Below the pieces are notes generated by a model, which had not been told where the DNA came from, did not search any database, and saw only the letters and a program-made list of their open reading frames with translations. Positions 1 to 12,593 of a DNA stretch of 64,000 nucleotides are shown here, piece by piece. A program made the position numbers and the translations under genes. Source of the DNA: a virus; IMG/VR virus record IMGVR_UViG_3300043444_000400, positions 7,061 to 71,060 of that record, one strand, 5' to 3'. The stretch's first letter is position 1. The number at the start of each line of letters is the position of its first letter.

Positions 1-2
1 AT

Positions 3-200
3 GGTAATGTTGGGGAAGCTGTATGTAGTGAAGAAGAACTACAGGAGATGTGTCCTGATATCTTCAGTGTATTTCCTAACAAAGTAAAAGAAGAACAAGC
101 TAAACTCGCGCAAGAACAAGCTGAACTGGAAGAGCTTCTGCGTCAAACTCAACTGACTATGCAAGCTGTCCAAGAAAAGCTGGATAGTCTGAAGATGTAA
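3..200 (+). CDS. 3' end of a coiled-coil protein (partial, starts before window)
   Basis: Open frame from pos 3 (GNVGEAVCSEEELQ...EQAKLAQEQAELEELLRQ...KM*), TAA at 198-200, followed by a hairpin. Confidence 0.7.
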   Translation, partial: GNVGEAVCSEEELQEMCPDIFSVFPNKVKEEQAKLAQEQAELEELLRQTQLTMQAVQEKLDSLKM

Positions 201-206
201 ATTTGT

Positions 207-242
207 AGGGAATCTGGGCCTCTCTGGGTTCCCTTAATTTTT
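207..242 (+). terminator. Rho-independent terminator-like hairpin
   Basis: AGGGAATC...GGTTCCCT stem followed by TAATTTTT, directly after a stop codon. Confidence 0.6.
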
Positions 243-260
243 GTTAGTAAAGGTAAACCA

Positions 261-407
261 ATGAATTCTTATTGTCACGATAAACGGATGGGTTGTTCTT
301 GGAGCTACGTTGCCGGGGGCTGTTTGTCTGCGAATCGCTACAGGTGGCTGCGCGGGGATTCCAGCAGCATCCTAGGTCTTCGTTTAATGTTAGTGGAGTT
401 TAACTAA
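261..407 (+). CDS. 48-aa microprotein, CLec/FGE variable-region-like motif (array unit A)
   Basis: Manual translation MNSYCHDKRMGCSWSYVAGGCLSANRYRWLRGDSSSILGLRLMLVEFN; AAGGT SD upstream; not in ORF track. Confidence 0.7.
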   Translation: MNSYCHDKRMGCSWSYVAGGCLSANRYRWLRGDSSSILGLRLMLVEFN

Positions 408-562
408 TGACTAAAGAATATATCCCCTATGCTGGGGGTACATGGTATCTTATCCCTAGAATCTGTAAGTCTGAGTCTCGTGATTGGTGGCAACGCAGTA
501 ATTCCCACGATAACGATAACGGGTTACGGCTAATGTTAATTGAGGTACAAAAAGATGAATGA
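407..562 (+). CDS. 51-aa microprotein, CLec/FGE variable-region-like motif (unit B)
   Basis: MTKEYIPYAGGTWYLIPRICKSESRDWWQRSNSHDNDNGLRLMLIEVQKDE; TAATG coupling with unit A, GGAG SD. Confidence 0.7.
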   Translation: MTKEYIPYAGGTWYLIPRICKSESRDWWQRSNSHDNDNGLRLMLIEVQKDE

Positions 563-698
563 TTACTATGGTGGTTCCTGGATTTACTTTGCTAAGTTTT
601 GTCGGTCTAATTATTGTTATTTAGCACGACACAACCACTCCTACAATTATGGTAGTTTCAGATTAATGTTAGTTAGGGTTAACAAAGATGGAAGATAA
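555..698 (+). CDS. 47-aa microprotein, CLec/FGE variable-region-like motif (unit C)
   Basis: MNDYYGGSWIYFAKFCRSNYCYLARHNHSYNYGSFRLMLVRVNKDGR; GAGGT SD lies inside the end of unit B. Confidence 0.7.
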   Translation: MNDYYGGSWIYFAKFCRSNYCYLARHNHSYNYGSFRLMLVRVNKDGR

Positions 699-759
699 GT
701 CTTATAAGTTTGGTCTTAGGTTAGCTTTAGTTGAGGTTATTCCTGATGCACTTAGTTAA
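688..759 (+). CDS. 23-aa truncated array unit D (only the GLRL-x-LVEV tail)
   Basis: MEDKSYKFGLRLALVEVIPDALS; overlaps units C and E with the same coupling pattern. Confidence 0.45.
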   Translation: MEDKSYKFGLRLALVEVIPDALS

Positions 760-916
760 ATACACAGGGGGTTCTTGGGTCTCATTTACTTGGCATTGTC
801 AATCGAACGAATATGGGAAATGTACAAGTTCTAGTAAGAATGTATATACGGGATTTCGTTTACTATTGATTGAGGTAAAAAACAATGGTATATATTCATG
901 TAGGTCGTTATCGTAA
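746..916 (+). CDS. 56-aa microprotein, CLec/FGE variable-region-like motif (unit E)
   Basis: MHLVKYTGGSWVSFTWHCQSNEYGKCTSSSKNVYTGFRLLLIEVK...; ATG 746 follows a GAGGT SD. Confidence 0.7.
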   Translation: MHLVKYTGGSWVSFTWHCQSNEYGKCTSSSKNVYTGFRLLLIEVKNNGIYSCRSLS

Positions 917-1094
917 GATTCCTTTCAAGTTATACACAATAGCTTTAGGTTCTTGTTGTAAAGGCGGAGGATGGAACAATAGCGCTTGGAACACAAGGTC
1001 TAAGTACATAAAAGAACAGGGGAATGGTCATAGTTCAAATCGTGGATTCCGCCTTATGTTAATTACGAAAGAAAATGAAAATAACAATCCTTAA
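885..1094 (+). CDS. 69-aa microprotein, CLec/FGE variable-region-like motif (unit F)
   Basis: ...KGGGWNNSAWNTRSKYIKEQGNGHSSNRGFRLMLITK; GAGGT SD. Confidence 0.7.
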   Translation: MVYIHVGRYRKIPFKLYTIALGSCCKGGGWNNSAWNTRSKYIKEQGNGHSSNRGFRLMLITKENENNNP

Positions 1095-1377
1095 GCATAT
1101 TGATATGATGTGTGAAAGAACAGCCCCTGGTGTAGGTTTAGAAATAGAATGGACTCACTTTTATCCAACTACTTTGAATGTAAGCCCTTATTTTAGAGAC
1201 CCTGATTTCAGACTAGAGATTTATGAAGATGATATGCCTTGGTATATCTTAAGAGATTATTATGGTCCTTATGTCATAAATATAAGTGCGGTTGAAGATC
1301 ATTTAGAAGAAGGTGACATAGAAATTTGTGATGCCCTTCGTGAATACCTAGTTAGATGGCAGAATGAGGATAACTGA
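1075..1377 (+). CDS. hypothetical protein
   Basis: ORF track, overlapping-gene packing. Confidence 0.65.
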   Translation: MKITILKHIDMMCERTAPGVGLEIEWTHFYPTTLNVSPYFRDPDFRLEIYEDDMPWYILRDYYGPYVINISAVEDHLEEGDIEICDALREYLVRWQNEDN

Positions 1378-1792
1378 TATGGAGCATAATGAGTATGATG
1401 GTTTTGAAGCCTTTCTTCCCATAGCAGAAGACTTTGACACTAAACATTGGCTTATTACCGATGATTACGGATATGGGATAAGAATTTTAACCAGAACCTA
1501 TTTTCTAGGACTTGCTTGGGTTAGTGTCGCTATTCAAGACCGTAAATCTTATGCAGAGGATGGAACCGAACTTAAGTACAAAGTATTTATTGAAATATAT
1601 ACTTTGATTGGGGCTAATATTAGATTCTGGTGTAAAACCAACTACCTGTTTTATCTTAGTAACCCGGATAAGAAATTTGGACCTTTCACTGCATCTAGAG
1701 ACAGGTTTTTCATTACGCCTAACTTTTGGTTTCACTTAATGGATAAAGTGCCTCAACCTATCAACTATATACGGAGCAAATTCAATGTATAA
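1364..1792 (+). CDS. hypothetical protein
   Basis: ORF track, operon packing. Confidence 0.65.
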   Translation: MRITDMEHNEYDGFEAFLPIAEDFDTKHWLITDDYGYGIRILTRTYFLGLAWVSVAIQDRKSYAEDGTELKYKVFIEIYTLIGANIRFWCKTNYLFYLSNPDKKFGPFTASRDRFFITPNFWFHLMDKVPQPINYIRSKFNV

Positions 1793-2474
1793 AGCAATTA
1801 GCCTTAGTCTTAAGTTGTTAGCCAATGCACTTGTAGAAACTGACCATACAATTGATAATGGTTTACTACTTCAAGACGAATACCTAAATATTTCTTTCGT
1901 TATAGATAAATTAGATTCTTCTCATGCGAATCTAATTCGTACTAACATAGGGATACATTCGGATTTTCTAGACCCTAAACAGCTTGTTAGCTGGATTTTA
2001 GAGACAAAACGGCTAACTATGAATGAACTAATAGAAATGCCAGAAAGTGAGATTCAAAAAGAGATTAATGAAATAGAACAACAACTTAGAGATATTTTAA
2101 CCTCAAGTCTTCCTAATTTTCTTTCCTCAGAAGACGTTGATAATAGTAAGCTCATGGATTGGTGTCTTAAGTATGCACAAGATAAAGTAGAGCCTCTCTT
2201 AGTAGGAGCTATGAATAAGCTATCTGAGACATCTTTAAGCCTCCCCAGTGGTCATTGCTACCCCGATATGGTACTTCTCTTCACTCCTATTTACGAAGAT
2301 GATGGTCTTTGTTACTTAAGGTTAACTAAAGAGACTTGCGAAAATATAGTTAACCAGTTTGGAATCTTTACTTTGTTTCTATCTCTAGCTGATGTAGCAA
2401 CTAGCCCTAATCACTTTGGTCAACTAATTGTTAATGAGGTACTTACAAGCGCGTTAGCTCAACTTATCAAGTAA
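1785..2474 (+). CDS. hypothetical protein
   Basis: 229-aa ORF, GGAG SD. Confidence 0.7.
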   Translation: MYKAISLSLKLLANALVETDHTIDNGLLLQDEYLNISFVIDKLDSSHANLIRTNIGIHSDFLDPKQLVSWILETKRLTMNELIEMPESEIQKEINEIEQQLRDILTSSLPNFLSSEDVDNSKLMDWCLKYAQDKVEPLLVGAMNKLSETSLSLPSGHCYPDMVLLFTPIYEDDGLCYLRLTKETCENIVNQFGIFTLFLSLADVATSPNHFGQLIVNEVLTSALAQLIK

Positions 2475-2488
2475 AGTGTGTATTCTTA

Positions 2489-2770
2489 ATGAGAAACAAG
2501 CCTAAACGTGAATGCGGAAGTTGCAGACACTGGGTAAAGATTAAGAATGAACGATTTGGTAGAGGACTATGCACTCTACTAGATGTTATGTCTAAGGCAC
2601 AACAAGGTAAGAAATGTAAACACTGGAAGGGGATTAAATACAAAATGTCACATTACTACTTTGAATTATCCATGGATGATGAGCAAGACTTAACAGAAGT
2701 AGGTCTAGAAGCTTTAGGTCTAACCTTTGTTAAAAGTAATGATGTTATTACTAAAGAAGACCTCTTATGA
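2489..2770 (+). CDS. small Cys-rich (Zn-binding) protein
   Basis: CGSCRHW...GLC...CKHW pattern. Confidence 0.55.
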   Translation: MRNKPKRECGSCRHWVKIKNERFGRGLCTLLDVMSKAQQGKKCKHWKGIKYKMSHYYFELSMDDEQDLTEVGLEALGLTFVKSNDVITKEDLL

Positions 2771-2791
2771 TAACCCTAACCTTAGCTGTAT

Positions 2792-3151
2792 ATGATAACT
2801 ATAACTTTTAAGTCTTTACAAGATGAATTCCCTAAACCAGGAGATGAAATAGCGTATATTACAAGTGAAGGGGGAATAACTAGTATAAGATTTTCTGAAG
2901 TCGTAATGTACTGGATGAAAGAAGAAGGGAATTGTATAGAGTATATAGATGAAGAGTGTGAAGGGTATACTCCGTTAACATTTCTTTCTGATGGAGAATG
3001 TCTAGACAATTACTTACTTGAGGGTGAGACTGATTTGTTCTATTGGACATATTTTAAGGAGTATTATGAAACAACGAAAGAAATATATGGAAAGGAACCT
3101 GAACCATATGATTATCTTAGAAGATTGCTATTTGACCCAATAGTAAAGTAA
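2792..3151 (+). CDS. hypothetical protein
   Basis: ORF track. Confidence 0.65.
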   Translation: MITITFKSLQDEFPKPGDEIAYITSEGGITSIRFSEVVMYWMKEEGNCIEYIDEECEGYTPLTFLSDGECLDNYLLEGETDLFYWTYFKEYYETTKEIYGKEPEPYDYLRRLLFDPIVK

Positions 3152-3188
3152 TATAAAGTTGTCCAGTAGTAAAGTAATATAAAGTTGT
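3141..3188 (+). repeat. 22-bp perfect direct repeat upstream of the tmRNA locus
   Basis: TAGTAAAGTAATATAAAGTTGT at 3141-3162 and 3167-3188; followed by inverted repeat TATAAGTA/TACTTATA (3193-3220). Confidence 0.85.
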
Positions 3189-3230
3189 TGGGTATAAGTA
3201 CACAGTCTTGTATACTTATATTTACGATAT

Positions 3231-3292
3231 GGTACTAAAAAGTATTAATGGAGTTAGCAAAGACAGCGGTTCAACTCCGCTCACCTCCACCA
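3231..3292 (+). ncRNA. ssrA: two-piece (permuted) tmRNA, acceptor piece
   Basis: GAC-A-GCGG-TTCAACT-CCGC-T-CACCTCC-A-CCA: T-arm plus 3' acceptor strand with encoded CCA; its 5' part (GGTAC, AGTATT, TTAGCAAA) pairs with the coding piece. 5' end approximate. Confidence 0.88.
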
Positions 3293-3385
3293 GGGGCAGT
3301 AGCTCAATTGGTAGAGCGAGAAGCTTATACCTTCTGTATGCACCAGATTAGTGCGCGGTTGTGGGTTCGAGTCCCTCCTGCCCTA
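3293..3385 (+). tRNA. trnI: tRNA-Ile(UAU) with long variable arm, forming the tmRNA intervening segment
   Basis: GGGGCAG/CTGCCCT acceptor, GCTC/GAGC D stem, AGAAG-CTTATAC-CTTCT anticodon arm (TAT 3326-3328), 25-nt V region, GTGGG-TTCGAGT-CCCTC T arm, discriminator A. Confidence 0.9.
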
Positions 3386-3389
3386 CCTT

Positions 3390-3600
3390 GGGGGTGTCCT
3401 GGTATCGATTTGTTAATGAAGTGAAATACTGTACCCGGTCTAGAGTCCAGGACCGACCCTATGTATATACTACATAGGTGAAGAAGGACAAAATCGTGTA
3501 AATGCGAATCAAATCAAACCTTTTGCTCGTAAGACCTCTCTTGCTGTAGCATAATCATTGAACTGGGGTAGCTCATAAGGGTTACCCTAGTTCTTCTTTT
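3390..3600 (+). ncRNA. ssrA: two-piece (permuted) tmRNA, coding piece
   Basis: 5' GGGGGTG-TCCTGGTATCGA pairs with CACCTCC giving G3.U70 (Ala identity); pk1-like pairings CGGTCT/GGACCG and GTCC/GGAC; tag frame after TAAAT; ends at terminator. Confidence 0.9.
3504..3554 (+). other. tmRNA proteolysis tag reading frame ANQIKPFARKTSLAVA*
   Basis: Resume codon GCG preceded by TAAAT; resembles cyanobacterial ANNIVxFARK...AA tags. Confidence 0.88.
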
Positions 3601-3601
3601 T
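3560..3601 (+). terminator. Rho-independent terminator ending the tmRNA transcript
   Basis: GAACTGGGGTAGCTC-ATAA-GGGTTACCCTAGTTC followed by TTCTTTTT. Confidence 0.85.
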
Positions 3602-3621
3602 GCTGTCATTTGGATTGTCTT

Positions 3622-3789
3622 ATGTTGGATCTTGCTTCGATTGGACAACTAGTTCGCCAACTATCTTTTGTTTATGCTGTATTTATGGCCTGTGACAGTA
3701 CCTATAAAAAGAATATTCATGCACAGATTTTTTTCTGTTCTATGGCCATAGTTATTCAACTACAACTTATTTTCGTTGGATTACGCTAA
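3622..3789 (+). CDS. small hydrophobic (membrane) protein, 55 aa
   Basis: Manual translation MLDLASIGQLVRQLSFVYAVFMAC...AIVIQLQLIFVGLR. Confidence 0.45.
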   Translation: MLDLASIGQLVRQLSFVYAVFMACDSTYKKNIHAQIFFCSMAIVIQLQLIFVGLR

Positions 3790-3932
3790 TGATGGACTTA
3801 TCTTTTTGGACTTATCTGGGTATAACTTGTTCTCTCTTTAATGCCTTAATTGACTTTGACCGTGAGAATTACTCGTGGTCTCTCTTCTGGGTTGTTTGGA
3901 CTATCTTGCTAGGAGTGAACAATTTGTATTAA
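3789..3932 (+). CDS. small hydrophobic (membrane) protein, 47 aa
   Basis: TAATG coupling; MMDLSFWTYLGITCSLFNAL...WSLFWVVWTILLGVNNLY. Confidence 0.45.
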   Translation: MMDLSFWTYLGITCSLFNALIDFDRENYSWSLFWVVWTILLGVNNLY

Positions 3933-4012
3933 AATGCTGTATAATTAACAGCAACACCTGTGAAAATCAGGTGTATATGCCCTGGTAGCTCAGTGGATAG
4001 AGCAATCGCCTT

Positions 4013-4657
4013 TGCAAAAACACCTAAGTAAGCTATAATTAACTTAGTTTATAAGGTGAACAAATGGAGCCTATTTGTTGGAAGGTTGAGAAGATTGTAA
4101 GTAAAGGTGACTATAACTATGCTGTGGTAAAAGGACACCCAAAAGCTAATAAGCTAGGGTATATTTTAGAACACAGAGTAGTTATGGAGAATCATCTTGG
4201 TAGACTTCTTAACTCTGATGAGGTTGTTCATCATATCAATCATGATAGAAAGGACAACAGGGTTGAAAACTTGGAAGTTATGACCGCAAAACAGCATCAA
4301 CTGCTACATGGAAAAGAGATAGGTAGGAAATACTGTCACTTAAAATGCCCTGAATGTGGTGTTGAATTTTGTAAAGAAATTAGAGATACTTTCTTACAAA
4401 AAGGGGGCAGGTTTACTACTTGTTCGGCAAAGTGTAGAGGAAAACTTTCAAGAAAAATCCAACTCGGAAGAGAAACTCAAATAGTGGAAGCCGCCATATC
4501 GGAGAACATCCTTGCTATTTTCAAAAGATACAAGGGCAACTCCGAGGTAACTGTCTTACAACAGGAACCGTAGAGACTATACGCGGCTCACCTGAAATGG
4601 TGAAGAAATAGTCCAGCCTACAACTCGAAAGAGGTCATAGTAATATGATGTGGGATG
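4013..4657 (+). mobile_element. group I intron carrying an HNH homing endonuclease
   Basis: Exon ends in U, intron ends in G; P3 GCCGC(4490)/GCGGC(4583), P4 TCGGAG/CTCCGA, P5 CCTTG/CAAGG, P7 GACTA(4575)/TAGTC(4609), P8 TCACC/GGTGA. Confidence 0.88.
4064..4573 (+). CDS. HNH homing endonuclease with C-terminal Zn finger
   Basis: EHRVVME...VVHHINHDRKDNRVENL HNH motif; CPEC...CSAKC. Confidence 0.9.
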   Translation: MEPICWKVEKIVSKGDYNYAVVKGHPKANKLGYILEHRVVMENHLGRLLNSDEVVHHINHDRKDNRVENLEVMTAKQHQLLHGKEIGRKYCHLKCPECGVEFCKEIRDTFLQKGGRFTTCSAKCRGKLSRKIQLGRETQIVEAAISENILAIFKRYKGNSEVTVLQQEP

Positions 4658-4715
4658 CTAAGCGATCGGTCGCAGGTTCGAGTCCTGCCCAGGGCGCTAA
4701 CTTTAGAGGTTAATA

Positions 4716-5039
4716 GTGATGGAAAAGATTAAGGTTGTAGATTACTATGACCATGAGCCTACTGCTTGGGATTCAGGTCTACGAGAAACCCCTATAGACC
4801 TCTATTTTGAGTTTGAGCCATATAGCGGTTTTTCTATAGTCAAAGGCTATAACTTTACTTGTGGGGAATATACTCTTACAGCTAAATGCCCCTATAGTGA
4901 CGAGACTTTTGACTTTGTTTATGAAGAATGGTGGGGAACATCTCTTCAAGAGTGGTTTGAGGATAGCGTAGATTCTTATCTAAATAAGAACAAAATGTCC
5001 CAAATGAAACTTAACTTACAAGGAGAAAATCATGACTAA
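4716..5039 (+). CDS. HicB-like domain protein (array member 1)
   Basis: PYSGFSI...FDFVY...SLQEWFEDSVDSYL, resembles the HicB N-terminal domain pattern. Confidence 0.5.
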   Translation: MMEKIKVVDYYDHEPTAWDSGLRETPIDLYFEFEPYSGFSIVKGYNFTCGEYTLTAKCPYSDETFDFVYEEWWGTSLQEWFEDSVDSYLNKNKMSQMKLNLQGENHD

Positions 5040-5655
5040 TCTGATTACTCTGTTTAAGAATTCTGAGAACGAGATTTCACATTTCAAGATTAACGGGGAC
5101 CAAGACTTTATTGAGGAGGTTCTTTTTGTTGTTGACTTTATTCAATATGAGAAATCAGAAGATGCCCTTACTTCAGGAAAGCCTCTTAGCTTTGATGTAA
5201 GTGGATGTTATGGCAATTACTACCTTCTTTTAGCTCTCTCCTCTATTACTCAGTATTTTGAATTTCAGATTGATGGAGTAACTAAACGAATTCCTTCTAC
5301 AGTTCTTCCTCCAGCTAAGGAAGTATTCGATAAATACCCTGATTATGAATATAAGAATTGGGGGAAAGATGACCTTGGGGTGGAGGAAATTCCTTGGCAA
5401 GATGTTATCCTTGCTAGCATTATTGAGGATTACATTCTAACTAATGAACCAATTGTTCTAGAGTATAAAGGTTTTACTTGTACTCTTACAAAAGACCCTG
5501 CGAACGACTGGAATTATACAGCAGTTGTAACTAATCAAGGTGTTGTTTCTTTTGAAGGTCAAGGTAATTTAACCTATCTTGAGACTCAATTTCCCGAATG
5601 TGTAGACTCAAAACTTCAAGGAAAGCGTATTTACACTATGTCCGTCTACTACTAA
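5032..5655 (+). CDS. protein with C-terminal HicB-like domain (member 2)
   Basis: LEYKGFTCTL...GVVSFEGQGNLTYLETQFPECVDSKL. Confidence 0.6.
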   Translation: MTNLITLFKNSENEISHFKINGDQDFIEEVLFVVDFIQYEKSEDALTSGKPLSFDVSGCYGNYYLLLALSSITQYFEFQIDGVTKRIPSTVLPPAKEVFDKYPDYEYKNWGKDDLGVEEIPWQDVILASIIEDYILTNEPIVLEYKGFTCTLTKDPANDWNYTAVVTNQGVVSFEGQGNLTYLETQFPECVDSKLQGKRIYTMSVYY

Positions 5656-5720
5656 ATTAGTTTTTTGTATTAGGGGTTCTTCATTGAGGAGAACCTCATT
5701 CATCAAAAAGGGGATTCACA

Positions 5721-6296
5721 ATGTCAAACTTCTTGTACATCAATAAAGATTTTGAGTGTTACGTTAAGGGTGATTCCACTTTTGTCTATGCCTTTATGAA
5801 AGCTGTTAAAGCTCAAGGCATAGCAGAGGTTGTGTTGAATGAAGAACAGCAAACCATATCCGCTAATTATTACCTCAATGCTCTTTATATCCTAGATATG
5901 ATAGCAACTATGAAGAAGCTATGTCCTGACTTCAAAGTTGTGTTTTGTAACGTCACAGACATTATTATGTCTAAGGAATTTCCAGATAAAGAATATCTGG
6001 ACTTCATTGAATTTAATCATGACATAATTCTGTCCTATATTGTTCATGCCAATACGAAGCGAGGAGCTAAAGCATTACGCTTTTGTTTCAACAATGACAT
6101 GATAGAAGATGTGCTGACATTTAGTTATAAGGATTTTCAGGTTTCTTCTGTTGAGTATAGCGAGATTTATGACAGTTTTGCAGGACTTGCAAGTCATAAA
6201 GATGATGTAACTAAAGAAGTTGCCTTTGTTGGTAAAGATGTAGAAGACCTAAAACAAGCTTTCCATGGTGCTGTAGATACGTATACGCAGACATAA
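5721..6296 (+). CDS. protein with C-terminal HicB-like domain (member 3)
   Basis: FSYKDFQVSSVEYSEIYDSFAG...VAFVGKDVEDLKQAFHGAVDTY; N-terminus paralogous to 5032..5655. Confidence 0.7.
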   Translation: MSNFLYINKDFECYVKGDSTFVYAFMKAVKAQGIAEVVLNEEQQTISANYYLNALYILDMIATMKKLCPDFKVVFCNVTDIIMSKEFPDKEYLDFIEFNHDIILSYIVHANTKRGAKALRFCFNNDMIEDVLTFSYKDFQVSSVEYSEIYDSFAGLASHKDDVTKEVAFVGKDVEDLKQAFHGAVDTYTQT

Positions 6297-6330: not shown

Positions 6331-6774
6331 GTGTTTGATTACATTCAGCCTTATGAAGGATACTCTTTCATCTGGAGTTATGTATGGCCTAGTCTTACAC
6401 AGAGAGGGCTTTCTACAGAAGTAAAAATACGAATCTGGTTTCCTTCTACTTCTTATCAACAGTTCTTTTCAACAGTAGACTATGTAAAAGCACATAATCT
6501 TAATCAATGGACTTTTAATTCCACCGTGGACTCATATATCAAGAGAATGGAACAAGAAGAACAAGGAGATTTTACTCTTATTAGCCAAGATGTAGGGATG
6601 GTTGATTTATTTACCCCTGTTATTACCCAGAAACACAATGAGGTATATCAAGGTACAGCTAAAGCAAATGACCTACAAGTTGATTTCTATGGACGTTCAG
6701 CGCTAGAATTAAAAGCTAGTTTGTACATGGAAGTACAAAGTCTATATCGTCGTATTCAAGGTTATGAGGACTAA
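6331..6774 (+). CDS. HicB-like domain protein, possibly two domains (member 4)
   Basis: QPYEGYSF...FNSTVDSYI and YQGTAKANDLQVDFYGRSALELKASL. Confidence 0.55.
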   Translation: MFDYIQPYEGYSFIWSYVWPSLTQRGLSTEVKIRIWFPSTSYQQFFSTVDYVKAHNLNQWTFNSTVDSYIKRMEQEEQGDFTLISQDVGMVDLFTPVITQKHNEVYQGTAKANDLQVDFYGRSALELKASLYMEVQSLYRRIQGYED

Positions 6775-7767: not shown

Positions 7768-8125
7768 TTACACTCTTAGTATTGAGCTAACAACGAAAGA
7801 AAACTCTGTTAATCCTTCTGTAGCGGAAGTAGGAAAACAGATTCTTGAAGCTGTTTCTCTAACCACAAAGACTAAACCAATTCCATACCACTTAGACATT
7901 AAGAATTGGTACACCCCTTATGCCAGTGATTTCATTGTCCTTAATTCTGTAACCAAGGATATGGTGATTGAGCTAGAGAAATATTTATCTCACCTAGGGA
8001 TGAATAATAAAGCTCAAGTTTTCCATAATGAAGAAGACCACACTGTACGAATTAACTTTGCCTCCTCTTTGTTCAGTCGAGATAACTTTACCCATTACCT
8101 ACAATACATTCAAAAACATGTCTAA
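7742..8125 (+). CDS. hypothetical protein
   Basis: ORF track; start moved to MKITF after a GGAG SD. Confidence 0.6.
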   Translation: MKITFPLFNYTLSIELTTKENSVNPSVAEVGKQILEAVSLTTKTKPIPYHLDIKNWYTPYASDFIVLNSVTKDMVIELEKYLSHLGMNNKAQVFHNEEDHTVRINFASSLFSRDNFTHYLQYIQKHV

Positions 8126-8447
8126 AAAACACGCACCATCTCAACAAATTAAGCCCCTACAAGCTAAGAATACCTCTCACAATCGCTATAGTCGTGTAGG
8201 AGATTTGATTATTCCTGGAGTTCTTAAGCCCGGTCAAGTTGTTGTAGGTAAGTCTCAGTTCTTTGATAAGTGGTTTGTCTATCGAATTACCGATGGCCTC
8301 AAACCTCTAGCATCACGTTTTACATTTGACAGTCAACCGGAGGCTCAACATTATGCAAGTCAATGGACATACACTACAGGACGATGGTTCTTTTCCCCTA
8401 AAGTTTATATCCCACAAGATGATTCTTCCTTTGAGGGATTGGACTAA
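8118..8447 (+). CDS. hypothetical protein
   Basis: ORF track; likely start MSKKH overlapping previous stop. Confidence 0.6.
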   Translation: MSKKHAPSQQIKPLQAKNTSHNRYSRVGDLIIPGVLKPGQVVVGKSQFFDKWFVYRITDGLKPLASRFTFDSQPEAQHYASQWTYTTGRWFFSPKVYIPQDDSSFEGLD

Positions 8448-8760
8448 TCCAGGGTTATATGGGACTTGGAAAGAAGTTCACCACGATGTCACACAGGATT
8501 TTTATCTTTCGTGTGACTTCCCTGTTCTAGGGGTTAGTTTGAATGGCTCTGAGTTTCTTGCTCCTAATGTAGAACATGGAGTAATTAAGACTCTTGAGAA
8601 CGGTAAGACTTTGAACCTAAAGATTTCCCCTTGCCATAACATCTACTATCTGCATACGGTGGTAGCTCGTACCCTTGAAGGTACATATGGTATTCATGTA
8701 AAAAACGAGACAAAGGAGTACAGTGGTAACCAAAGGAGTGAACTCGCACTGTTGGTTTGA
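8419..8760 (+). CDS. hypothetical protein
   Basis: ORF track; likely start MILPL. Confidence 0.55.
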   Translation: MILPLRDWTNPGLYGTWKEVHHDVTQDFYLSCDFPVLGVSLNGSEFLAPNVEHGVIKTLENGKTLNLKISPCHNIYYLHTVVARTLEGTYGIHVKNETKEYSGNQRSELALLV

Positions 8761-9208
8761 TTCAACCCTGTGTGTAGTTTCTCTAGCTAAGAGCTTAGAC
8801 TCAAATACACAAGGTGCAATCGGCTTTGTCTATGTTTATGATGACACCGTATTTGAGAAATTAGTACAAGTCATCAAGAACATTGCGCCTTTACCTTGTG
8901 TAGCTACTAATATAGGGAAAGAATCTCAAATTAAGATATATTTCCCTACTACATGGACTGCACATAGGGTTTGTAGATTCCTAGACCAAGTTTCACAAGG
9001 AATTAGTAGTAAGGCAAAAGTAAATGTTGATAAACGTTTTAACTTTCCCTCTACTAAGATAACTAGGTATCAAATCTTCAACAAAGACGTAGATTATCAT
9101 CCTATTGATAGTTCATTTGTTGAATGGTGTGATGCTGTTCAAAAATTAGAAAGATTAACGGAGGAAGAAGAAGATGGCGAAGAAGGATTCCAGTTCTTCA
9201 TCGAATAG
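8723..9208 (+). CDS. hypothetical protein
   Basis: ORF track, GGAG SD plus GTG start. Confidence 0.65.
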   Translation: MVTKGVNSHCWFDSTLCVVSLAKSLDSNTQGAIGFVYVYDDTVFEKLVQVIKNIAPLPCVATNIGKESQIKIYFPTTWTAHRVCRFLDQVSQGISSKAKVNVDKRFNFPSTKITRYQIFNKDVDYHPIDSSFVEWCDAVQKLERLTEEEEDGEEGFQFFIE

Positions 9209-9368
9209 CACGAATAGTACCTCTCGTATTGCAATTGTTACTTGTAAATGCAATCATGCATTTCAAGACCTAACATACGGGATTAAGCGCCGTGTAGCAA
9301 ATCGGTGTGGTACTAAAGATAACTACAAATATCGTTGTACTGTGTGTCTTACTGAGCATAAGAAATAA
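9174..9368 (+). CDS. small basic Zn-binding protein
   Basis: CKCNHAFQD...YG...RVAN...YRCTVC. Confidence 0.65.
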   Translation: MAKKDSSSSSNSTNSTSRIAIVTCKCNHAFQDLTYGIKRRVANRCGTKDNYKYRCTVCLTEHKK

Positions 9369-9375
9369 CAACATG

Positions 9376-9411
9376 AAACTCCAGCTTAGTTATATCCCTA
9401 AGCTGGGTTTA
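9376..9411 (+). terminator. terminator-like hairpin
   Basis: CCAGCTTAG-TTATATCC-CTAAGCTGG followed by GTTT. Confidence 0.55.
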
Positions 9412-9453
9412 TAACAGGTAATCCTTTGCCCTACATTCTAATAGGTAATTCAC

Positions 9454-10041
9454 ATGCCTGTAATTCTTTCTTCCACAACCAAGAGTAGTACATATGACCT
9501 TAGTGAAATTCCTAAGGACTGTATACCCTTAGCACTTAAGGACCAAGAGGTTGCTAAGTTACTTCTTGATGCCTTCTACCAACAATGGTATAAGTTTGGT
9601 AGTCCACCATTTATTAAGGAGAAAACTCTTACACAGAACAAAATGGAGTGGGTATTTGTAGAACCTTACGGATATCTACATTTACCTAAAACCATTGGGC
9701 GTTACTTCCTACTTAAGGATAATACTTCAGCTAGTCTACCTTTACCTTGTCGTAATCTATTAAGCCGACATGATATGGGTACTGTTGACCTTAGTAAAGT
9801 AGAGGTTAAGAACTTCTTTCCTGAAGCACATATAAAACCTTTTGGGCAGGAATGTTCCACAATCTGTCTATATAGCCCTTCCTCCGTTGTTTCTCTTTTA
9901 GTTCAAACCCGAAGTTCTCGTCTAGAGAAAATTCTTCTAGGGTCTACTTTTCTTTCGTTTTTACACAGTCAAGGCTTTGAAGTACCTCTTCAAGGCTATT
10001 TTTGGCGCAATCTTAAATCAATGGAGTCCTCAAATGACTAA
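9454..10041 (+). CDS. hypothetical protein upstream of the Ubl cassette
   Basis: ORF track. Confidence 0.7.
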   Translation: MPVILSSTTKSSTYDLSEIPKDCIPLALKDQEVAKLLLDAFYQQWYKFGSPPFIKEKTLTQNKMEWVFVEPYGYLHLPKTIGRYFLLKDNTSASLPLPCRNLLSRHDMGTVDLSKVEVKNFFPEAHIKPFGQECSTICLYSPSSVVSLLVQTRSSRLEKILLGSTFLSFLHSQGFEVPLQGYFWRNLKSMESSND

Positions 10042-10636
10042 TCTCATGCCGATTTCTGAATGGCTTCCTTCTTTTAATAATGAAGGTCAAGAATTTATTG
10101 CTGACCAAATTGCTACATTCTTTATGGACCATGAAGAGATTCATAAGGAGTTGATTGCTGTTCGAGGCCGATATAACAGTCTAACGAAAGAAGACCTTGT
10201 TAACTGGGTTGAACACGAAGGTAATCTGTATAAGACTGCCTCTGATATGTCTTGGTTCATCATCCATCCAAACTCCTATCTTTGGACTAATGGGCATTGG
10301 AGTGAACGATATAACGCTACGGTTGGTCCACTTCGTACTAAGTGGTCTAAATCAGTCGGTGACTTAACTCTTTTGGGTTGCATGGAGATTACTCGTGATT
10401 GGCCTGAAGCTCAGTTGATCATGACTAAGATGGGAAATGCAAACCGTCTGTACAGTATGAATAAGGCAACCTTCTACTCTCCTCTGTTTTTGCTCTGTGC
10501 ATATCTGACAGGTTCTCAAAGTCAGAACTTTATGCACAATCACTTTCGTTCGTGGCTCATTAGCAAAGGGTATGATGTAAATTTTCATCCCTACAATGTT
10601 AATGAAATCCATGACTTTCTTTATGGGGCGGAGTAG
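10034..10636 (+). CDS. hypothetical protein upstream of the Ubl cassette
   Basis: ORF track; start MTNLM after GGAG SD. Confidence 0.7.
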   Translation: MTNLMPISEWLPSFNNEGQEFIADQIATFFMDHEEIHKELIAVRGRYNSLTKEDLVNWVEHEGNLYKTASDMSWFIIHPNSYLWTNGHWSERYNATVGPLRTKWSKSVGDLTLLGCMEITRDWPEAQLIMTKMGNANRLYSMNKATFYSPLFLLCAYLTGSQSQNFMHNHFRSWLISKGYDVNFHPYNVNEIHDFLYGAE

Positions 10637-11134
10637 ATGACGACGCAAAGCAAGTTGTGGCAGATTTGGGAACAGAATGCTCATTATCCAGAACGGCTAA
10701 ACATGAATAGCTGTGTTGTAATGCGGGTATTCTGTCCTTCAGCATTCTCTGAATTTAACTTTAACAAGCTTGATTTTGAGTGTCTTGTTAAAGCAGGTCT
10801 GGAAGTTATTACAAAAACTCAGCTTCCTTACTTTGAGAAGTTAATGGCTGTTCCTGATGAATGTATTTTTATCTCTAGCCCTCTAGAAAAGAATACACAA
10901 ACACAGGTAGCTAATTCTATCTTTGGTTTGTTTAATCAAGCTTGGACTATGCATGGAGGAAAATTAACACCTTTCTCCTACTATGTATGGGCTTCGGGGG
11001 ATAAACCAGAGACAGGTTTCTATGAAGACTTCATTGCATGGCGTATGCAACAGTGGAGTCATCGTTATCGAGTTCTAGAGCTTTCAAAGAAGTTTAACTT
11101 CAATGAGAGTATCTATAAGTTTACTAATGGCTAA
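10637..11134 (+). CDS. hypothetical protein upstream of the Ubl cassette
   Basis: ORF track, abuts previous stop. Confidence 0.7.
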   Translation: MTTQSKLWQIWEQNAHYPERLNMNSCVVMRVFCPSAFSEFNFNKLDFECLVKAGLEVITKTQLPYFEKLMAVPDECIFISSPLEKNTQTQVANSIFGLFNQAWTMHGGKLTPFSYYVWASGDKPETGFYEDFIAWRMQQWSHRYRVLELSKKFNFNESIYKFTNG

Positions 11135-11162
11135 CACCTACAAATCTTAAGGAGATTATCTC

Positions 11163-11486
11163 ATGTCTTTTCTTTCTAACCTTCTCGGTCGCATTTCTGG
11201 TCAGCAAGCTCCTGAGCAACTGAATATCCCTGCTATGGAGCCTCAGCACTACGTACAGGTAACACTGTCTACCAAATATGATGTGCAACTGACTGAAGAG
11301 CAAGAGGGATTGAACCTTGTTACCTATCTGACTGAGTACACTGGTCAGAACGTAGCTTCTCATAACCTTGTGATTGTCTTCCCTGAGGGTGAATCTCTCT
11401 ATGGTGAAGCAGCTAAAGCCTATGTTGTATCTAAGCCCTACCCTGTATCTGTCACTACGCAAGATAGCACTCAGGATAATGGGTAA
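11163..11486 (+). CDS. putative ubiquitin-like (beta-grasp) modifier with C-terminal Gly
   Basis: 107 aa, ends ...QDSTQDNG*; strong AAGGAG SD; directly upstream of JAB, E2 and E1 genes. Confidence 0.6.
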   Translation: MSFLSNLLGRISGQQAPEQLNIPAMEPQHYVQVTLSTKYDVQLTEEQEGLNLVTYLTEYTGQNVASHNLVIVFPEGESLYGEAAKAYVVSKPYPVSVTTQDSTQDNG

Positions 11487-11491
11487 ATAAG

Positions 11492-11565
11492 TTCCTAGAT
11501 TTTCTTTCGTGACATTTCTCTTACGACTACACTTCCTAGATTGTTACAAACAAGCTTCCTAGATT
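11492..11565 (+). repeat. three copies of TTCCTAGATT
   Basis: Exact copies at 11492, 11533 and 11556 in the Ubl-JAB intergenic region. Confidence 0.8.
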
Positions 11566-11582
11566 AACCCTGTGAACTGGTG

Positions 11583-11613
11583 AAGGAACCTCTTTAATTA
11601 GGGGTTCCTTTTA
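11583..11613 (+). terminator. terminator hairpin between the Ubl and JAB genes
   Basis: AAGGAACCTCT-TTAATT-AGGGGTTCCTT followed by TT. Confidence 0.7.
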
Positions 11614-11636
11614 TTTATAGCTAAGGACTATATATC

Positions 11637-12593
11637 ATGTTGATTGAAGATGGTGTACTTAACGCTGTTAAAGACCCTTACGGTACGATTTACACAGTAC
11701 GAGATAGTTTATGGTGTAACTATTTAGACAGAGCTACAATTCACGAAATTGTAGAAGCTGCTAAATTAATTGACCCTAACTTCTTTGTTACTAAACTTCC
11801 TATTGTTAATGATAATGATTTAACTGAAATTGAATACAATCTAGACATCCTTATTCCTAAAGAACAATTTCTTAGTCTTACTGGAATCTTTCTGTTGTAT
11901 GCGGAAGACCGTTTAGAAGTTGGTGCTTTAGGGTTATATAGGGAGTCTGATAGAGATTGGCAATATCTTATCCCTAAGCACAAGGTGACGAATTCAGTTA
12001 ATGTTCAATCGGGTAGTAATACGGAGACTTGGCCTTATGTAACTTTACAGGGGGAAGAGACTACCTTACGTGATATGTATGCTTCGGGCTATGTAATTGC
12101 CTCTCAGGAACATAGTCACCATTACATGTCCCCTACTCCAAGTGCTCAAGATGATATTGATGAAATCAAATCCTCTAAAGGTATTCGTCTTTGTAGAATC
12201 TTTGGTTCCGTTAATCACAGCAAAGGTGTATGGTCTTGGAAAAACAATTTCACTCTAGCTACCCCTTGGACTCGTTATACGGGATTGAAAGAACAGGATT
12301 ATGTTGAACCTTATCAACATCATGAAGCTCTAGAGTACTTTCCAAAAACGAAAGAAGATTTGCCCCCAAAGATTGTTGAATTTATTGAAGCAGGAATTCC
12401 TAAATACAAATCATTCTATGCGGGTGGACATTCAAATATTTCTACCCTTCTTAATGATGAATATGAGGAAGTTTGGGTGCGAAATGAAAAACAGTCGAAG
12501 ATTCCACCTGAATTTAATCCTTCCGACTACACACGATCTCAATTGCTAGATATCTCTAGTCTTATCATTAAGGAACTTCGTAAACGTCTATGA
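11637..12593 (+). CDS. JAB/MPN+ metallopeptidase (PRTRC protein A-like deconjugase)
   Basis: Upstream E (LEVGAL) plus HSHHYMSPTPSAQDDIDE = HxH-x7-S-x2-D JAMM motif. Confidence 0.85.
   Translation: MLIEDGVLNAVKDPYGTIYTVRDSLWCNYLDRATIHEIVEAAKLIDPNFFVTKLPIVNDNDLTEIEYNLDILIPKEQFLSLTGIFLLYAEDRLEVGALGLYRESDRDWQYLIPKHKVTNSVNVQSGSNTETWPYVTLQGEETTLRDMYASGYVIASQEHSHHYMSPTPSAQDDIDEIKSSKGIRLCRIFGSVNHSKGVWSWKNNFTLATPWTRYTGLKEQDYVEPYQHHEALEYFPKTKEDLPPKIVEFIEAGIPKYKSFYAGGHSNISTLLNDEYEEVWVRNEKQSKIPPEFNPSDYTRSQLLDISSLIIKELRKRL

What the first reader, a model, noticed from the sequence alone, without database searches (positions are those of the whole stretch)
261..1094. Tandem array of ~50-aa microgenes made only of the DGR-target (CLec/FGE) variable-region motif
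Seen: six translationally coupled ORFs (261-407, 407-562, 555-698, 688-759, 746-916, 885-1094), four of them below the ORF-track cutoff. Five share G(G/C)(S/T/G)W-x6-(C/T)-x-S-x2-(R/C/Y/I)-x11-13-(G/S)(F/L)RL(M/L)L, with fully divergent residues between the anchors. The conserved tail ML(I/V)EV often encodes the GAGGT Shine-Dalgarno of the next unit, so the unit is self-concatenating. Known: RGGSW...CRSAxR...GFR is the C-terminal ligand-binding segment of FGE-subtype C-type-lectin domains, the segment diversified by diversity-generating retroelements, and cyanobacteria carry it on many multidomain signalling/conflict proteins. Inference: stand-alone VR peptides without the rest of the fold could be decoys or dominant-negative inhibitors of host CLec immune receptors, or a silent cassette library recombined into a full-length CLec gene elsewhere in the phage. 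I know of no described system like this.
Basis: partly seen in the sequence, partly recalled or inferred. Interest (0 to 1): 0.87.

Follow-up and report, generated by a model that had tools for sequence, protein, structure and literature searches.

The report
Split lectin-fold gene with microgene library
An uncultured freshwater phage encodes one binding-protein core that lacks its variable end, flanked by about sixteen tiny genes that each encode a different version of that missing end, which may be a new way to get many binding specificities from one scaffold.

Summary
The six microgenes at window 261-1094 are the right-hand part of an array of 17 tail motifs (15 full units, 2 truncated) on the + strand of the contig, G000:C1:4966-8154. 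In the middle sits a 275-aa gene that ends at window 200. It holds the FGE-sulfatase/C-type-lectin core, Pfam PF03781 positions 38-191 of 255, without its normal C-terminal segment. One unit is fused at its N-terminus and a helical tail follows the core.

The units are homologous to the missing segment (hhalign 96%, E 3e-9). A structure model places unit 555-698 on the core with score 0.95 against 0.17 for the best control. This pass may only reflect likeness to intact FGE folds. Contigs of other freshwater samples show whole-unit deletions, swaps and replacements with break points in the conserved tails.

A second phage lineage, whose core is 45% identical to this one, has the same split layout. 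No reverse transcriptase or template repeat was found, but the record is only about half a genome.

Best reading: one scaffold plus a hard-coded library of alternative binding tips. Whether the tips join as free peptides or by DNA recombination is not settled. Five literature searches found no description.

The parts
1..200 (+). Last 66 codons of the 275-aa scaffold gene (whole gene G000:C1:6433-7260, so it starts 627 bases left of the window). Layout: N-terminal fused unit (aa 1-47), FGE-sulfatase core (aa 76-219, ending HGNVGEAV), helical C-terminal tail.
   Evidence: PF03781 at 48.2 bits (cut-off 23.3) over profile positions 38-191 of 255. ORF. AF2 helices at 236-258 and 263-274. Best PDB fold hit is TvpA 2y3c.
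207..244 (+). Terminator-like hairpin (12-pair stem, then a T-run) directly after the scaffold stop. It separates the left array plus scaffold from the six units of the finding.
   Evidence: C1:7267-7294 plus tail. The number of such sites in the region is not above shuffles (5 against 3.2 +/- 1.6), so this is a consensus match only.
261..407 (+). Unit U11, 48 aa, full unit (GCSW..C.S..GLRLMLVEF).
   Evidence: In run X7 its body is replaced by 110 other letters between 7318 and 7451 of the contig.
407..562 (+). Unit U12, 51 aa, full unit. Its ATG shares a base with the U11 stop.
   Evidence: Relative P0156 is identical over the first 47 aa and differs in the last four residues, after the conserved IEV.
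555..698 (+). Unit U13, 47 aa, full unit. This is the unit used in the complex prediction.
   Evidence: Complex score 0.95 against 0.17 for the best control; its residues 35-39 (FRLML) touch core strands 76-82 and 151-156.
688..759 (+). Unit U14t, 23 aa, truncated unit that keeps only the start and the tail (GLRLALVEV). Probably a recombination scar.
   Evidence: A like tail (GFRLALVEVI...) sits on unit U1 of a relative, P0002.
746..916 (+). Unit U15, 56 aa, full unit.
   Evidence: Relatives P0004 (6 differences) and P0006 (12 differences) keep every anchor residue.
885..1094 (+). Unit U16, 69 aa, last unit. It has a longer N-terminal part. Its 3' end overlaps the start (1075) of the next, unrelated gene.
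   Evidence: Relative P0008 has an unrelated body with the same 16-residue tail.

Best explanation
The locus encodes a split binding domain. One constant gene supplies the core of an FGE-sulfatase-type C-type-lectin fold but not its last ~45 residues. In this fold those residues supply two core strands and the ligand-binding variable surface. About 15 co-oriented microgenes, nine on the left and six on the right, each encode one alternative version of that segment. The structural anchors (GGSW, C.S, GFRLML) are conserved and everything between them differs.

I think the units are translated separately by termination-reinitiation coupling. Each can then complete a core molecule non-covalently, either the core made from the internal start Met48 or the core with its fused unit displaced. 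One infection would then produce a panel of binders with different specificities. The conserved tail has three roles: a core beta-strand, the ribosome-binding site and start context of the next unit, and the homology at which units are deleted, duplicated and swapped between genomes. That includes swaps into the one slot where a unit is fused to the N-terminus of the core. The target of the binders is unknown. The neighbourhood (small early-type genes, a DNA-binding protein, tRNAs) suggests an intracellular rather than a virion role.

Shown: the architecture, the homology, protein-level conservation, and unit-scale recombination in nature. Inferred: translation of the units, complementation in trans, and binding function.
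For: 1. The core lacks its C-terminal segment. PF03781 matches positions 38-191 of 255 only, and homologues continue with RGGxW..CRSAxR..GFR where this protein has a helical tail.

2. The units are that segment.
- The unit profile aligns to the C-terminal columns of 50 scaffold homologues with hhalign probability 96.1% and E 3.4e-9 over 41 columns.
- The top 6 of 8 PDB profile hits are FGE-fold chains matched at their extreme C-termini.
- The same profile finds multi-unit proteins, and for 6 of 6 tested the best-scoring stretch lies within PF03781 positions 208-255; in one of them, which also holds a complete domain, that stretch spans positions 4-254.

3. Complex prediction of core residues 48-228 with unit 555-698:
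- Score 0.95 in 3 of 3 runs; best of 3 controls 0.17.
- That mark was reached by 58 of 80 solved complexes and 2 of 110 mismatched pairs.
- Runs agree in at least 97% of contacts.
- Partner pLDDT is 83-85.
- Core pLDDT is 93-94 with the unit, but 51-62 with unrelated partners.
- The unit's FRLML tail sits between core strands 76-82 and 151-156.

4. A unit-only protein (3 units, 13-row alignment) gets no confident fold of its own, mean pLDDT 39.

5. Translation signals: 15 of the 16 unit starts I specified read ATG (my U7 coordinate fell on a CTG, and the ATG lies one codon on, by reading). Stops overlap the next start. An SD lies at -9 to -13 for 11 of 16. There is no stop in 807 unit codons (P about 5e-27). 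Anchors are written with synonymous codons.

6. An SD-like GAGGA lies before the internal Met48 of the scaffold (sequence). One relative's gene, P0292, is called from that Met.

7. Natural turnover.
- Joints at tails in contigs of three other runs: skips of 185, 144, 130 and 188 nt, one back-step of 285 nt, and one body replaced by 110 letters.
- P0012 is identical at 232 of 240 residues after GFRT but has an unrelated fused unit.

8. The core is under purifying selection: 34 of the 40 listed differences in relatives fall on third codon positions. A further 158 differences were not shown.

9. An independent lineage has the same layout. L003 (P0015 family) has a core ending right after the HGNVWEW block, a unit fused in front, and at least 5 free unit ORFs with ATGA overlaps and GFRLVLPQ tails.
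Against: - No expression data exist. No RNA run holds the stretch, so translation is inferred only.
- The complex pass is what one expects for two pieces of a known fold. It shows likeness, not binding in a cell (the tool's own caveat).
- The scaffold already has a unit fused in cis, conserved in 3 of 4 cluster members. In the second lineage that fused unit is the hypervariable part while the core is nearly invariant. So the cis unit may be the only working tip and the free units only a store.
- AF2 of the whole scaffold did not place the fused unit with confidence either way. pLDDT is under 50 for residues 1-30 and about 63 for residues 31-40.
- In a relative two units are fused in one frame (P0002). 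Elsewhere up to 9 units are fused with a core in one polypeptide (P0132). So separate translation is not essential to the family.
- The split layout is rare. 72 of 79 related viral loci, 62 of 80 metagenome loci and 66 of 80 genome loci hold only ordinary complete domains.
Confidence: 0.42

Rival explanations
1. Recombination cassette store only. The working protein is the circularly permuted form, with a unit fused in front of the core. The free units are donor cassettes that reach this one slot by homologous recombination at the conserved tails. This resembles pilS/vls cassettes or the orphan C-terminal cassettes of polymorphic toxin loci. Any free peptides made are by-products.
For: - The fused slot differs by whole units between near-identical scaffolds. 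P0001 and P0012 are identical at 232 of 240 residues after the junction and unalignable before it.
- Run X4 joins 6349 to 6538 at the GFRT tail.
- In the P0015 family four unit types sit on a nearly invariant core.
- Joints lie in tails with 9-14 shared letters.
- L003 tails are 93-96% identical at the DNA level in three of the other four copies (79% and 68% in the two most diverged), good substrates for recombination.
- The phage encodes a Sak4-like annealing protein.
Against: - Each unit carries its own start, stop and mostly an SD. They sit in one co-oriented block, so they should be translated anyway.
- The six right-hand units lie behind the scaffold and a terminator-like hairpin. A simple deletion cannot bring them into the slot.
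- DNA identity of tails in this phage is only 60-79%.
- No recombinase or inverted repeats flank the array.
Confidence: 0.27
2. First reader's decoy model. The free peptides act on host proteins, for example by inserting into or competing with the FGE-type sensor domains of cyanobacterial conflict systems. They would not act on the phage's own core.
For: - FGE-type (FGS) domains are common sensor or effector parts of cyanobacterial conflict systems (PMC7159879, passages read).
- The nearest cellular relatives of the core are mostly cyanobacterial.
- Unit U3 resembles a cyanobacterial variable region (by eye).
Against: - A cognate core that lacks exactly this segment is encoded inside the array and is predicted to accept a unit.
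- Host domains are complete and have no free slot.
- No test with a host protein was possible.
Confidence: 0.08
3. DGR-linked locus. The units are variable regions, or old copies of them, written by a diversity-generating retroelement whose reverse transcriptase and template lie in the missing half of the genome.
For: - The fold and the segment are those that DGRs diversify (PMC5758913 and PMC7159879, passages read).
- In the P0015 family the fused unit shows point-wise variation at many positions on an otherwise identical background. This looks DGR-like at the protein level.
- The record is only about 53% complete.
Against: - No RVT_1 match at E<=1 in the 71,060 bases.
- No two units resemble a template/variable pair. 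The best pair is 68% identical over 109 nt, with mismatches spread over all bases (A share 11-39%).
- Units differ by indels and at every position, unlike the variable regions of one template.
Confidence: 0.06
4. Debris. The units are remnants of repeated partial duplications of the 3' end of a once complete gene, and have no present function.
For: Two truncated units exist (tail only). The unit count varies between relatives.
Against: - 807 unit codons have no stop (P about 5e-27).
- Anchors are conserved through synonymous codons.
- Starts are kept.
- Units are kept identical or nearly so in relatives from other samples: P0156, P0157 and P0009.
- The same layout occurs in a second lineage.
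Confidence: 0.04

Closest known systems
DGR variable proteins with the FGE-type C-type-lectin fold (TvpA of Treponema denticola, PDB 2y3c; cyanobacterial FGS-domain DGR targets)
   Same: Same fold: the best fold hit of the scaffold model is 2y3c, and TvpA is among the profile hits of the units. The same C-terminal segment carries the variation, on a conserved core.
   Different: Here the variants are hard-coded side by side as separate small ORFs instead of being written by a reverse transcriptase from a template. The domain is split between genes. No RT or TR was found in the half genome held.
Cassette-based variation: orphan C-terminal cassettes of polymorphic toxin loci (PMC3482391, search listing and abstract start only), and pilE/pilS or vlsE-type systems (recalled)
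   Same: One expressed gene plus an array of alternative end-modules that share a conserved junction. Natural recombinants have break points at that junction.
   Different: The modules here are a piece of a single fold, not a whole toxin domain with an immunity gene. They lie on both sides of the gene. They carry their own translation signals. The fused slot is at the N-terminus, so the domain is circularly permuted.
Ordinary phage and cyanobacterial FGE-sulfatase domain genes, including tandem arrays of complete paralogues
   Same: Homologous core, 32-57% identity. Some phages also multiply the domain: locus L031 has about 9-10 complete copies in a row.
   Different: Those genes each hold the whole domain in the normal order. 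This was so for 72 of 79 viral loci and for Microcystis phage MaMV-DL02. Here only the last ~45 residues are multiplied.
Tandem complete CLec domains in single DGR target genes (PMC5758913 and PMC10907252, passages read)
   Same: The diversified module is repeated within one locus.
   Different: Those repeats are complete domains in one polypeptide, each with its own core.
Lamprey VLR loci (recalled, no call): an incomplete germline gene flanked on both sides by partial-domain cassettes
   Same: Formal layout: an incomplete scaffold gene with donor pieces upstream and downstream.
   Different: Different fold and a eukaryotic somatic assembly process. There is no evidence of programmed assembly here.

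Membership tests
FGE-sulfatase / FGE-type C-type-lectin fold (Pfam PF03781) | Sequence match above the Pfam gathering score | tested here: met
   The scaffold P0001 scores 48.2 bits against a cut-off of 23.3. Top fold hits are TvpA, PvdO, PorK and FGE, with weak TM of about 0.37 from an incomplete model.
FGE-sulfatase / FGE-type C-type-lectin fold (Pfam PF03781) | Whole domain (profile 1-255) in one polypeptide in the usual order | tested here: not met
   Only profile positions 38-191 match. The C-terminal ~60 positions are absent from their place. A unit precedes the core instead.
FGE-sulfatase / FGE-type C-type-lectin fold (Pfam PF03781) | The microgene products are the C-terminal segment of the domain | tested here: met
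   hhalign probability 96.1%, E 3.4e-9, against the C-terminal columns of scaffold homologues. PDB profile hits lie at the C-termini of PorK, TvpA and EgtB. Taken singly, none of the six window peptides reaches PF03781 at E<=10.
Catalytic formylglycine-generating enzyme | Pair of catalytic cysteines in the C-terminal segment (recalled from the human FGE literature, not from a call) | not tested
   By eye, only U13 and U4b of the 15 units have two Cys spaced C-x4-C after the GGSW motif. No alignment to a catalytic FGE was made.
Diversity-generating retroelement (DGR) | Reverse transcriptase in the element | tested here: inconclusive
   No PF00078 match at E<=1 in the 71,060-base record, but the record is estimated to be 53% complete.
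Diversity-generating retroelement (DGR) | Template repeat and variable region that are nearly identical, with differences at template adenines | tested here: not met
   The best unit pair is 68% identical over 109 nt. The A share of mismatches is 11-39%. Repeat families reach only 60-79% identity over 38-50 nt.
Silent-cassette variation systems (pilS, vls, orphan toxin cassettes) | Recombination between cassettes and the expression site at conserved junctions | tested here: met
   Joints at tails in runs X4, X5 and X7, including one into the fused slot. The slot unit is swapped in P0012 and in the P0015 family.
Silent-cassette variation systems (pilS, vls, orphan toxin cassettes) | Cassettes lack their own translation signals (are silent) | tested here: not met
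   15 of the 16 starts I specified read ATG (the U7 coordinate fell on a CTG one codon before its ATG). 11 of 16 have an SD at -9 to -13, and each unit has its own stop. Expression itself could not be tested.

The most novel reading that the evidence does not exclude
A phage makes a germline-encoded repertoire of binders by protein fragment complementation. One invariant lectin-fold core is completed in trans by any of about 15 separately translated ~50-aa 'tip' peptides. The conserved tail of each tip is at once a core strand, the ribosome-binding site of the next tip, and the recombination handle that reshuffles the library. This would be a retroelement-free counterpart of DGR diversification and a natural split-protein display system. 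The many unit-only and multi-unit proteins in metagenomes (54 of the best 150 profile hits) may work the same way.
Probability: 0.35. Interest if true: 0.92.

Novelty: new variant of a known kind. Interest (0 to 1): 0.84.

Why it matters
Diversifying a binding surface is central to phage-host conflict. The known routes are DGR hypermutation, invertible or shufflon-type tail-fibre ends, and silent cassettes.

This locus shows another layout on the very fold that DGRs use. The constant 80% of the domain is encoded once, and only the ligand-binding last ~45 residues are multiplied, as stand-alone microgenes. If the tips join the core as free peptides, this would be the first natural library built on fragment complementation. 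It would also be a ready-made scaffold for engineered binders. If the tips join by recombination, it is a compact cassette system in a virus that couples translation signals to recombination sites.

Either way, most of these genes are about 50 codons long (23 to 71 aa) and such short genes are easily missed by ordinary annotation. That suggests similar split domains are being overlooked.

Tried and rejected
- **Pfam on single peptides.** None of the six window peptides hit PF03781 at E<=10. Homology needed profiles.
- **Close relatives in IMG/VR.**
  - The scaffold gave no pattern match.
  - A degenerate DNA pattern for the tail gave 0 matches.
  - The upstream neighbour gene gave none.
  - The multi-unit proteins P0167 and P0200 gave none.
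  - The unit alignments A2 and A5 were too variable for the search for related loci (errors).
- **Megablast of window 1-6000 against isolated phages.** Only the tRNA-Ile matched.
- **DGR reading.** No RT, no TR-like pair, and no TR-like repeat in L003.
- **Expression.** No RNA holder was listed among the 10 runs. This is a blank, not evidence.
- **Parts of the array without contig cover** in runs X3, X5 and X7 are not interpreted.
- **AF2 of the whole scaffold.** It did not settle whether the fused unit docks in cis, because confidence over residues 1-47 is low.
They returned only 37-56% relatives, not the family itself. So the wider context of the second lineage rests on the 6-kb locus L003 alone.
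- **ESM Atlas.** Clusters of 44-aa look-alikes carry PF03781 on 19-55% of members. This is a lead only; they may be gene fragments.
- **RiPP-precursor reading of the units.** Considered and dropped, because the units are homologous to part of the fold itself.
- **Literature.** Five searches and passages of three papers found complete tandem CLec domains and DGR targets. None described stand-alone C-terminal segments or a split domain. Supplements were not seen and could hold such cases.
Full report
**Where the window lies.** The window is bases 7061-71060 of a 71,060-base IMG/VR virus record, estimated about 53% complete.
- It encodes a DNA polymerase, a primase/helicase, ribonucleotide reductase, an RNA ligase, a Sak4-like annealing protein and a portal.
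- Ten sequencing runs hold the array stretch or a part of it. All are freshwater or freshwater-sediment metagenomes, from 5 studies.
- The polymerase finds only Nodularia phages among isolated phages, at about 27% identity.
- The FGE core finds Microcystis phages.
- The nearest cellular relatives of the core are mostly cyanobacteria.
- A cyanophage is therefore likely but not shown.

**The observation.**
- Five carry the stated anchor pattern, and 688-759 is a tail-only remnant.
A scan of all six frames of the record finds 17 tail motifs, all on the + strand, between C1:5080 and C1:8107. Only 4 context-less hits of the short regex occur elsewhere.
- Reading the region left of the window gives nine more unit ORFs at C1:4966-6436. 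One of them is a tail-only remnant fused to a full unit.
- Across the array, 15 of the 16 starts I specified read ATG; my U7 coordinate fell on a CTG, one codon before its ATG (by reading).
- Neighbouring units overlap by 1-32 nt or are separated by short gaps. An SD-like GAGG/AGGT inside the previous tail lies 9-13 nt upstream for 11 of 16.
- There is no stop in 807 unit codons, P about 5e-27 at this genome's stop frequency.
- The anchor residues are written with many synonymous codons. So the conservation is on protein.

**The missing piece.** A Pfam search of the whole record finds one FGE-sulfatase match, at C1:6658-7089, just left of the window.
- It belongs to a 275-aa ORF, C1:6433-7260, that ends at window 200.
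- The match covers profile positions 38-191 of 255 at 48.2 bits, against a cut-off of 23.3.
- Fifty homologues continue after the HGNVxEW block with ...RGGxW..CRSAxR..GFR. This protein continues instead with a helical tail.
- Its first 47 residues are themselves a unit (GGSW...GFRTLLIQEDTT) fused in frame, followed by Met48 with a GAGGA a few bases upstream.
- So the locus reads: nine units, then the unit-fused core without a C-terminal segment, then a terminator-like hairpin at window 207-234, then the six units of the finding.

**Homology of the units.**
- Singly they miss Pfam.
- A profile of six units finds 8 PDB sequences at E<=10. The best six are FGE-fold chains matched at their very C-termini: PorK/GldK at E 0.0035, TvpA at 0.065 and EgtB-IV at 0.58. 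The other two are unrelated.
- A 15-unit profile gives the same families with weaker E-values, plus the FGE-fold chain 5aoh (listed as CarF) and one antibody chain.
- Against 1.84 billion representatives the 15-unit profile finds 2277 proteins at E<=1e-3.
- Six multi-unit hits were scanned, and all six match PF03781. In five the best stretch is at profile positions about 208-255. In P0132 it spans the complete domain, 4-254.
- hhalign of the units against the alignment of scaffold homologues gives 96.1% probability and E 3.4e-9 over 41 columns. These are exactly the C-terminal RGGxW..GFR columns.

**Does a unit fit the core?** One complex job was allowed.
- Core residues 48-228 with unit 555-698 scored 0.95 in each of three runs. 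The best of three controls scored 0.17.
- That mark was reached by 58 of 80 solved complexes and 2 of 110 mismatched pairs.
- The runs share at least 97% of contacts, and partner pLDDT is 83-85.
- The core itself is confident (pLDDT 93-94) only with the unit. With unrelated partners it is 51-62.
- The unit's FRLML tail lies between core strands 76-82 and 151-156.
- This is a split of a fold with many solved structures. The pass may come from that likeness and does not show binding in a cell.
- AF2 of the whole scaffold gave mean pLDDT 67, with residues 1-30 under 50 and the fused unit's tail at about 63. So cis docking is neither shown nor excluded.
- The model's best PDB matches are TvpA, CarF, PvdO, PorK and FGE, with TM about 0.3-0.37.
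- A protein made of three units only, folded with a 13-row alignment, got mean pLDDT 39. This is weak evidence that units do not fold on their own.

**Relatives.** IMG/VR holds no close relative. Proteins and contigs from other samples do.
- The 90% cluster of the scaffold has 4 members.
  - P0291 carries the same fused unit.
  - P0012 has an unrelated fused unit but is identical at 232 of 240 residues from GFRT onward.
  - P0292 is called from Met48.
- Free units recur in other samples.
  - P0157 equals U8.
  - P0156 equals U12 over its first 47 residues and differs in the last four.
  - P0009 is U5 with one change and another tail end.
  - P0004 and P0006 are U15 with 6 and 12 changes, none at an anchor.
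  - P0008 has a different body on the exact U16 tail.
  - P0002 is U1 and U2 fused in one frame, ending with the U3 tail.
- Contigs of four other runs laid on C1:4900-8200 show unit-scale joints.

| Run | Joint (contig coordinates) | Kind |
|---|---|---|
| X4 | 5218>5404 | skips 185, 9 shared letters |
| X4 | 5535>5680 | skips 144, 14 shared letters |
| X4 | 5866>5997 | skips 130 |
| X4 | 6349>6538 | skips 188, landing at the GFRT tail of the fused slot |
| X5 | 5679>5395 | goes back 285, 12 shared letters |
| X7 | 7318>7451 | 132 letters replaced by 110 others, the body of U11 |

- In the scaffold core, 34 of the 40 listed differences are at third codon positions. A further 158 were not shown.

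**A second lineage.** The scaffold's nearest other relatives are the P0015 family, 45% identical over the core, with 18 members on contigs up to 77 kb. Some are labelled as a Verrucomicrobia MAG.
- These proteins also start with a unit and stop shortly after the HGNVWEW block.
- In 11 aligned members the core is almost invariant. The fused unit comes in four types, with many point differences within a type.
- The one viral contig of this family, L003 (6 kb), shows free unit ORFs at 771-944, 941-1105, 2355-2585, 2552-2713 and 2710-3054. They have ATGA overlaps. Three of the other four copies of the 28-nt tail repeat are 93-96% identical in DNA to the reference copy; the remaining two are 79% and 68%.
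- So the split layout arose or persisted in two lineages that differ widely in sequence.

**How rare the layout is.**
- 72 of 79 viral loci with related cores hold only complete domains. One of the other seven, L031, has about 9-10 complete copies in a row.
- 62 of 80 metagenome loci are plain, and none has two or more free units.
- 66 of 80 genome loci are plain. The only one with several free units (L197) reads, by eye, as an Asn-rich DGR template with variable-region copies.
- Microcystis phage MaMV-DL02 has an ordinary complete gene.

**DGR.**
- No RVT_1 match in the record.
- No unit pair resembles a template/variable pair. The best is 68% over 109 nt, with mismatches not biased to adenines.
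- Tail repeats are 60-79% identical.
- Half the genome is missing and could not be fetched. So a DGR elsewhere is not excluded.
- The point-wise variation in the P0015 family keeps that door open for the second lineage.

**Reading.**
- The architecture is certain: a fold split into one core gene and a library of alternative last segments.
- I think it most likely (0.42) that the units are translated and complete the core in trans, with recombination at the tails reshuffling the library.
- Next (0.27) is that only the fused slot works and the free units are donors.
- The remaining readings are decoys of host sensors (0.08), a hidden DGR (0.06) and debris (0.04).
- The binding target and the role in infection are unknown.
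- The neighbours are a phrog_624 DNA-binding protein upstream and small unknown genes downstream. This does not look like a virion module.

**Prior description.** Five full-text searches and passages of PMC7159879, PMC5758913 and PMC10907252 describe the following:
- FGS/CLec domains as DGR targets;
- a syntax in which other domains always lie N-terminal to the FGS domain;
- tandem complete CLec domains.

None describes stand-alone C-terminal segments or a split domain. Supplements were closed. Earlier notes of this scan report circularly permuted FGE domains in other uncultured phages. I did not test those. Their permutation point, as described, differs from the one here.

Noticed in passing
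not in the window; proteins P0132, P0136, P0146, P0149, P0167, P0200 and others: Metagenomes hold many proteins made only of 2-6 tandem copies of the FGE C-terminal unit. By my count, 54 of the best 150 profile hits are 300 aa or shorter with 2 or more matched stretches, and I read 23 of these. At least one 731-aa protein has 4 units, a core, then 5 units in one frame. I found no description of them.
   Followed up: partly
P0015 family, alignment A6; locus L003:2-730: In 11 near-identical proteins (89-98% identity) the fused N-terminal unit varies point by point at many positions while the 228-aa core is almost invariant. At the protein level this looks like DGR-type hypermutation. The DNA could not be fetched to test for adenine specificity.
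   Followed up: partly
L031:2156-8332 (IMG/VR contig of 121 kb): Seven to ten complete FGE-sulfatase domain genes of about 250 aa lie in a row in one phage contig. This is a whole-gene paralogue array, a contrasting way to multiply this binding fold.
   Followed up: no
window 555-698 (U13) and G000:C1:5578-5721 (U4b): Two of the 15 units have a C-x4-C pair right after the GGSW motif. From memory this resembles the spacing of the catalytic cysteine pair of true formylglycine-generating enzymes. The other units lack it.
   Followed up: no
window 3200-3645: ARAGORN calls a permuted tmRNA (tag peptide ending ...LAVA) with a tRNA-Ile(UAU) at 3293-3387 inside its span. The tRNA is 96-97% identical to those of two Synechococcus phages.
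   Followed up: no
L197 (Leptolyngbyaceae MAG contig), 7941-11853: Free unit-like ORFs beside FGE genes read as an Asn-rich DGR template repeat with variable-region copies. This shows what an ordinary DGR locus looks like under the same unit HMM, and it differs from the phage array.
   Followed up: partly
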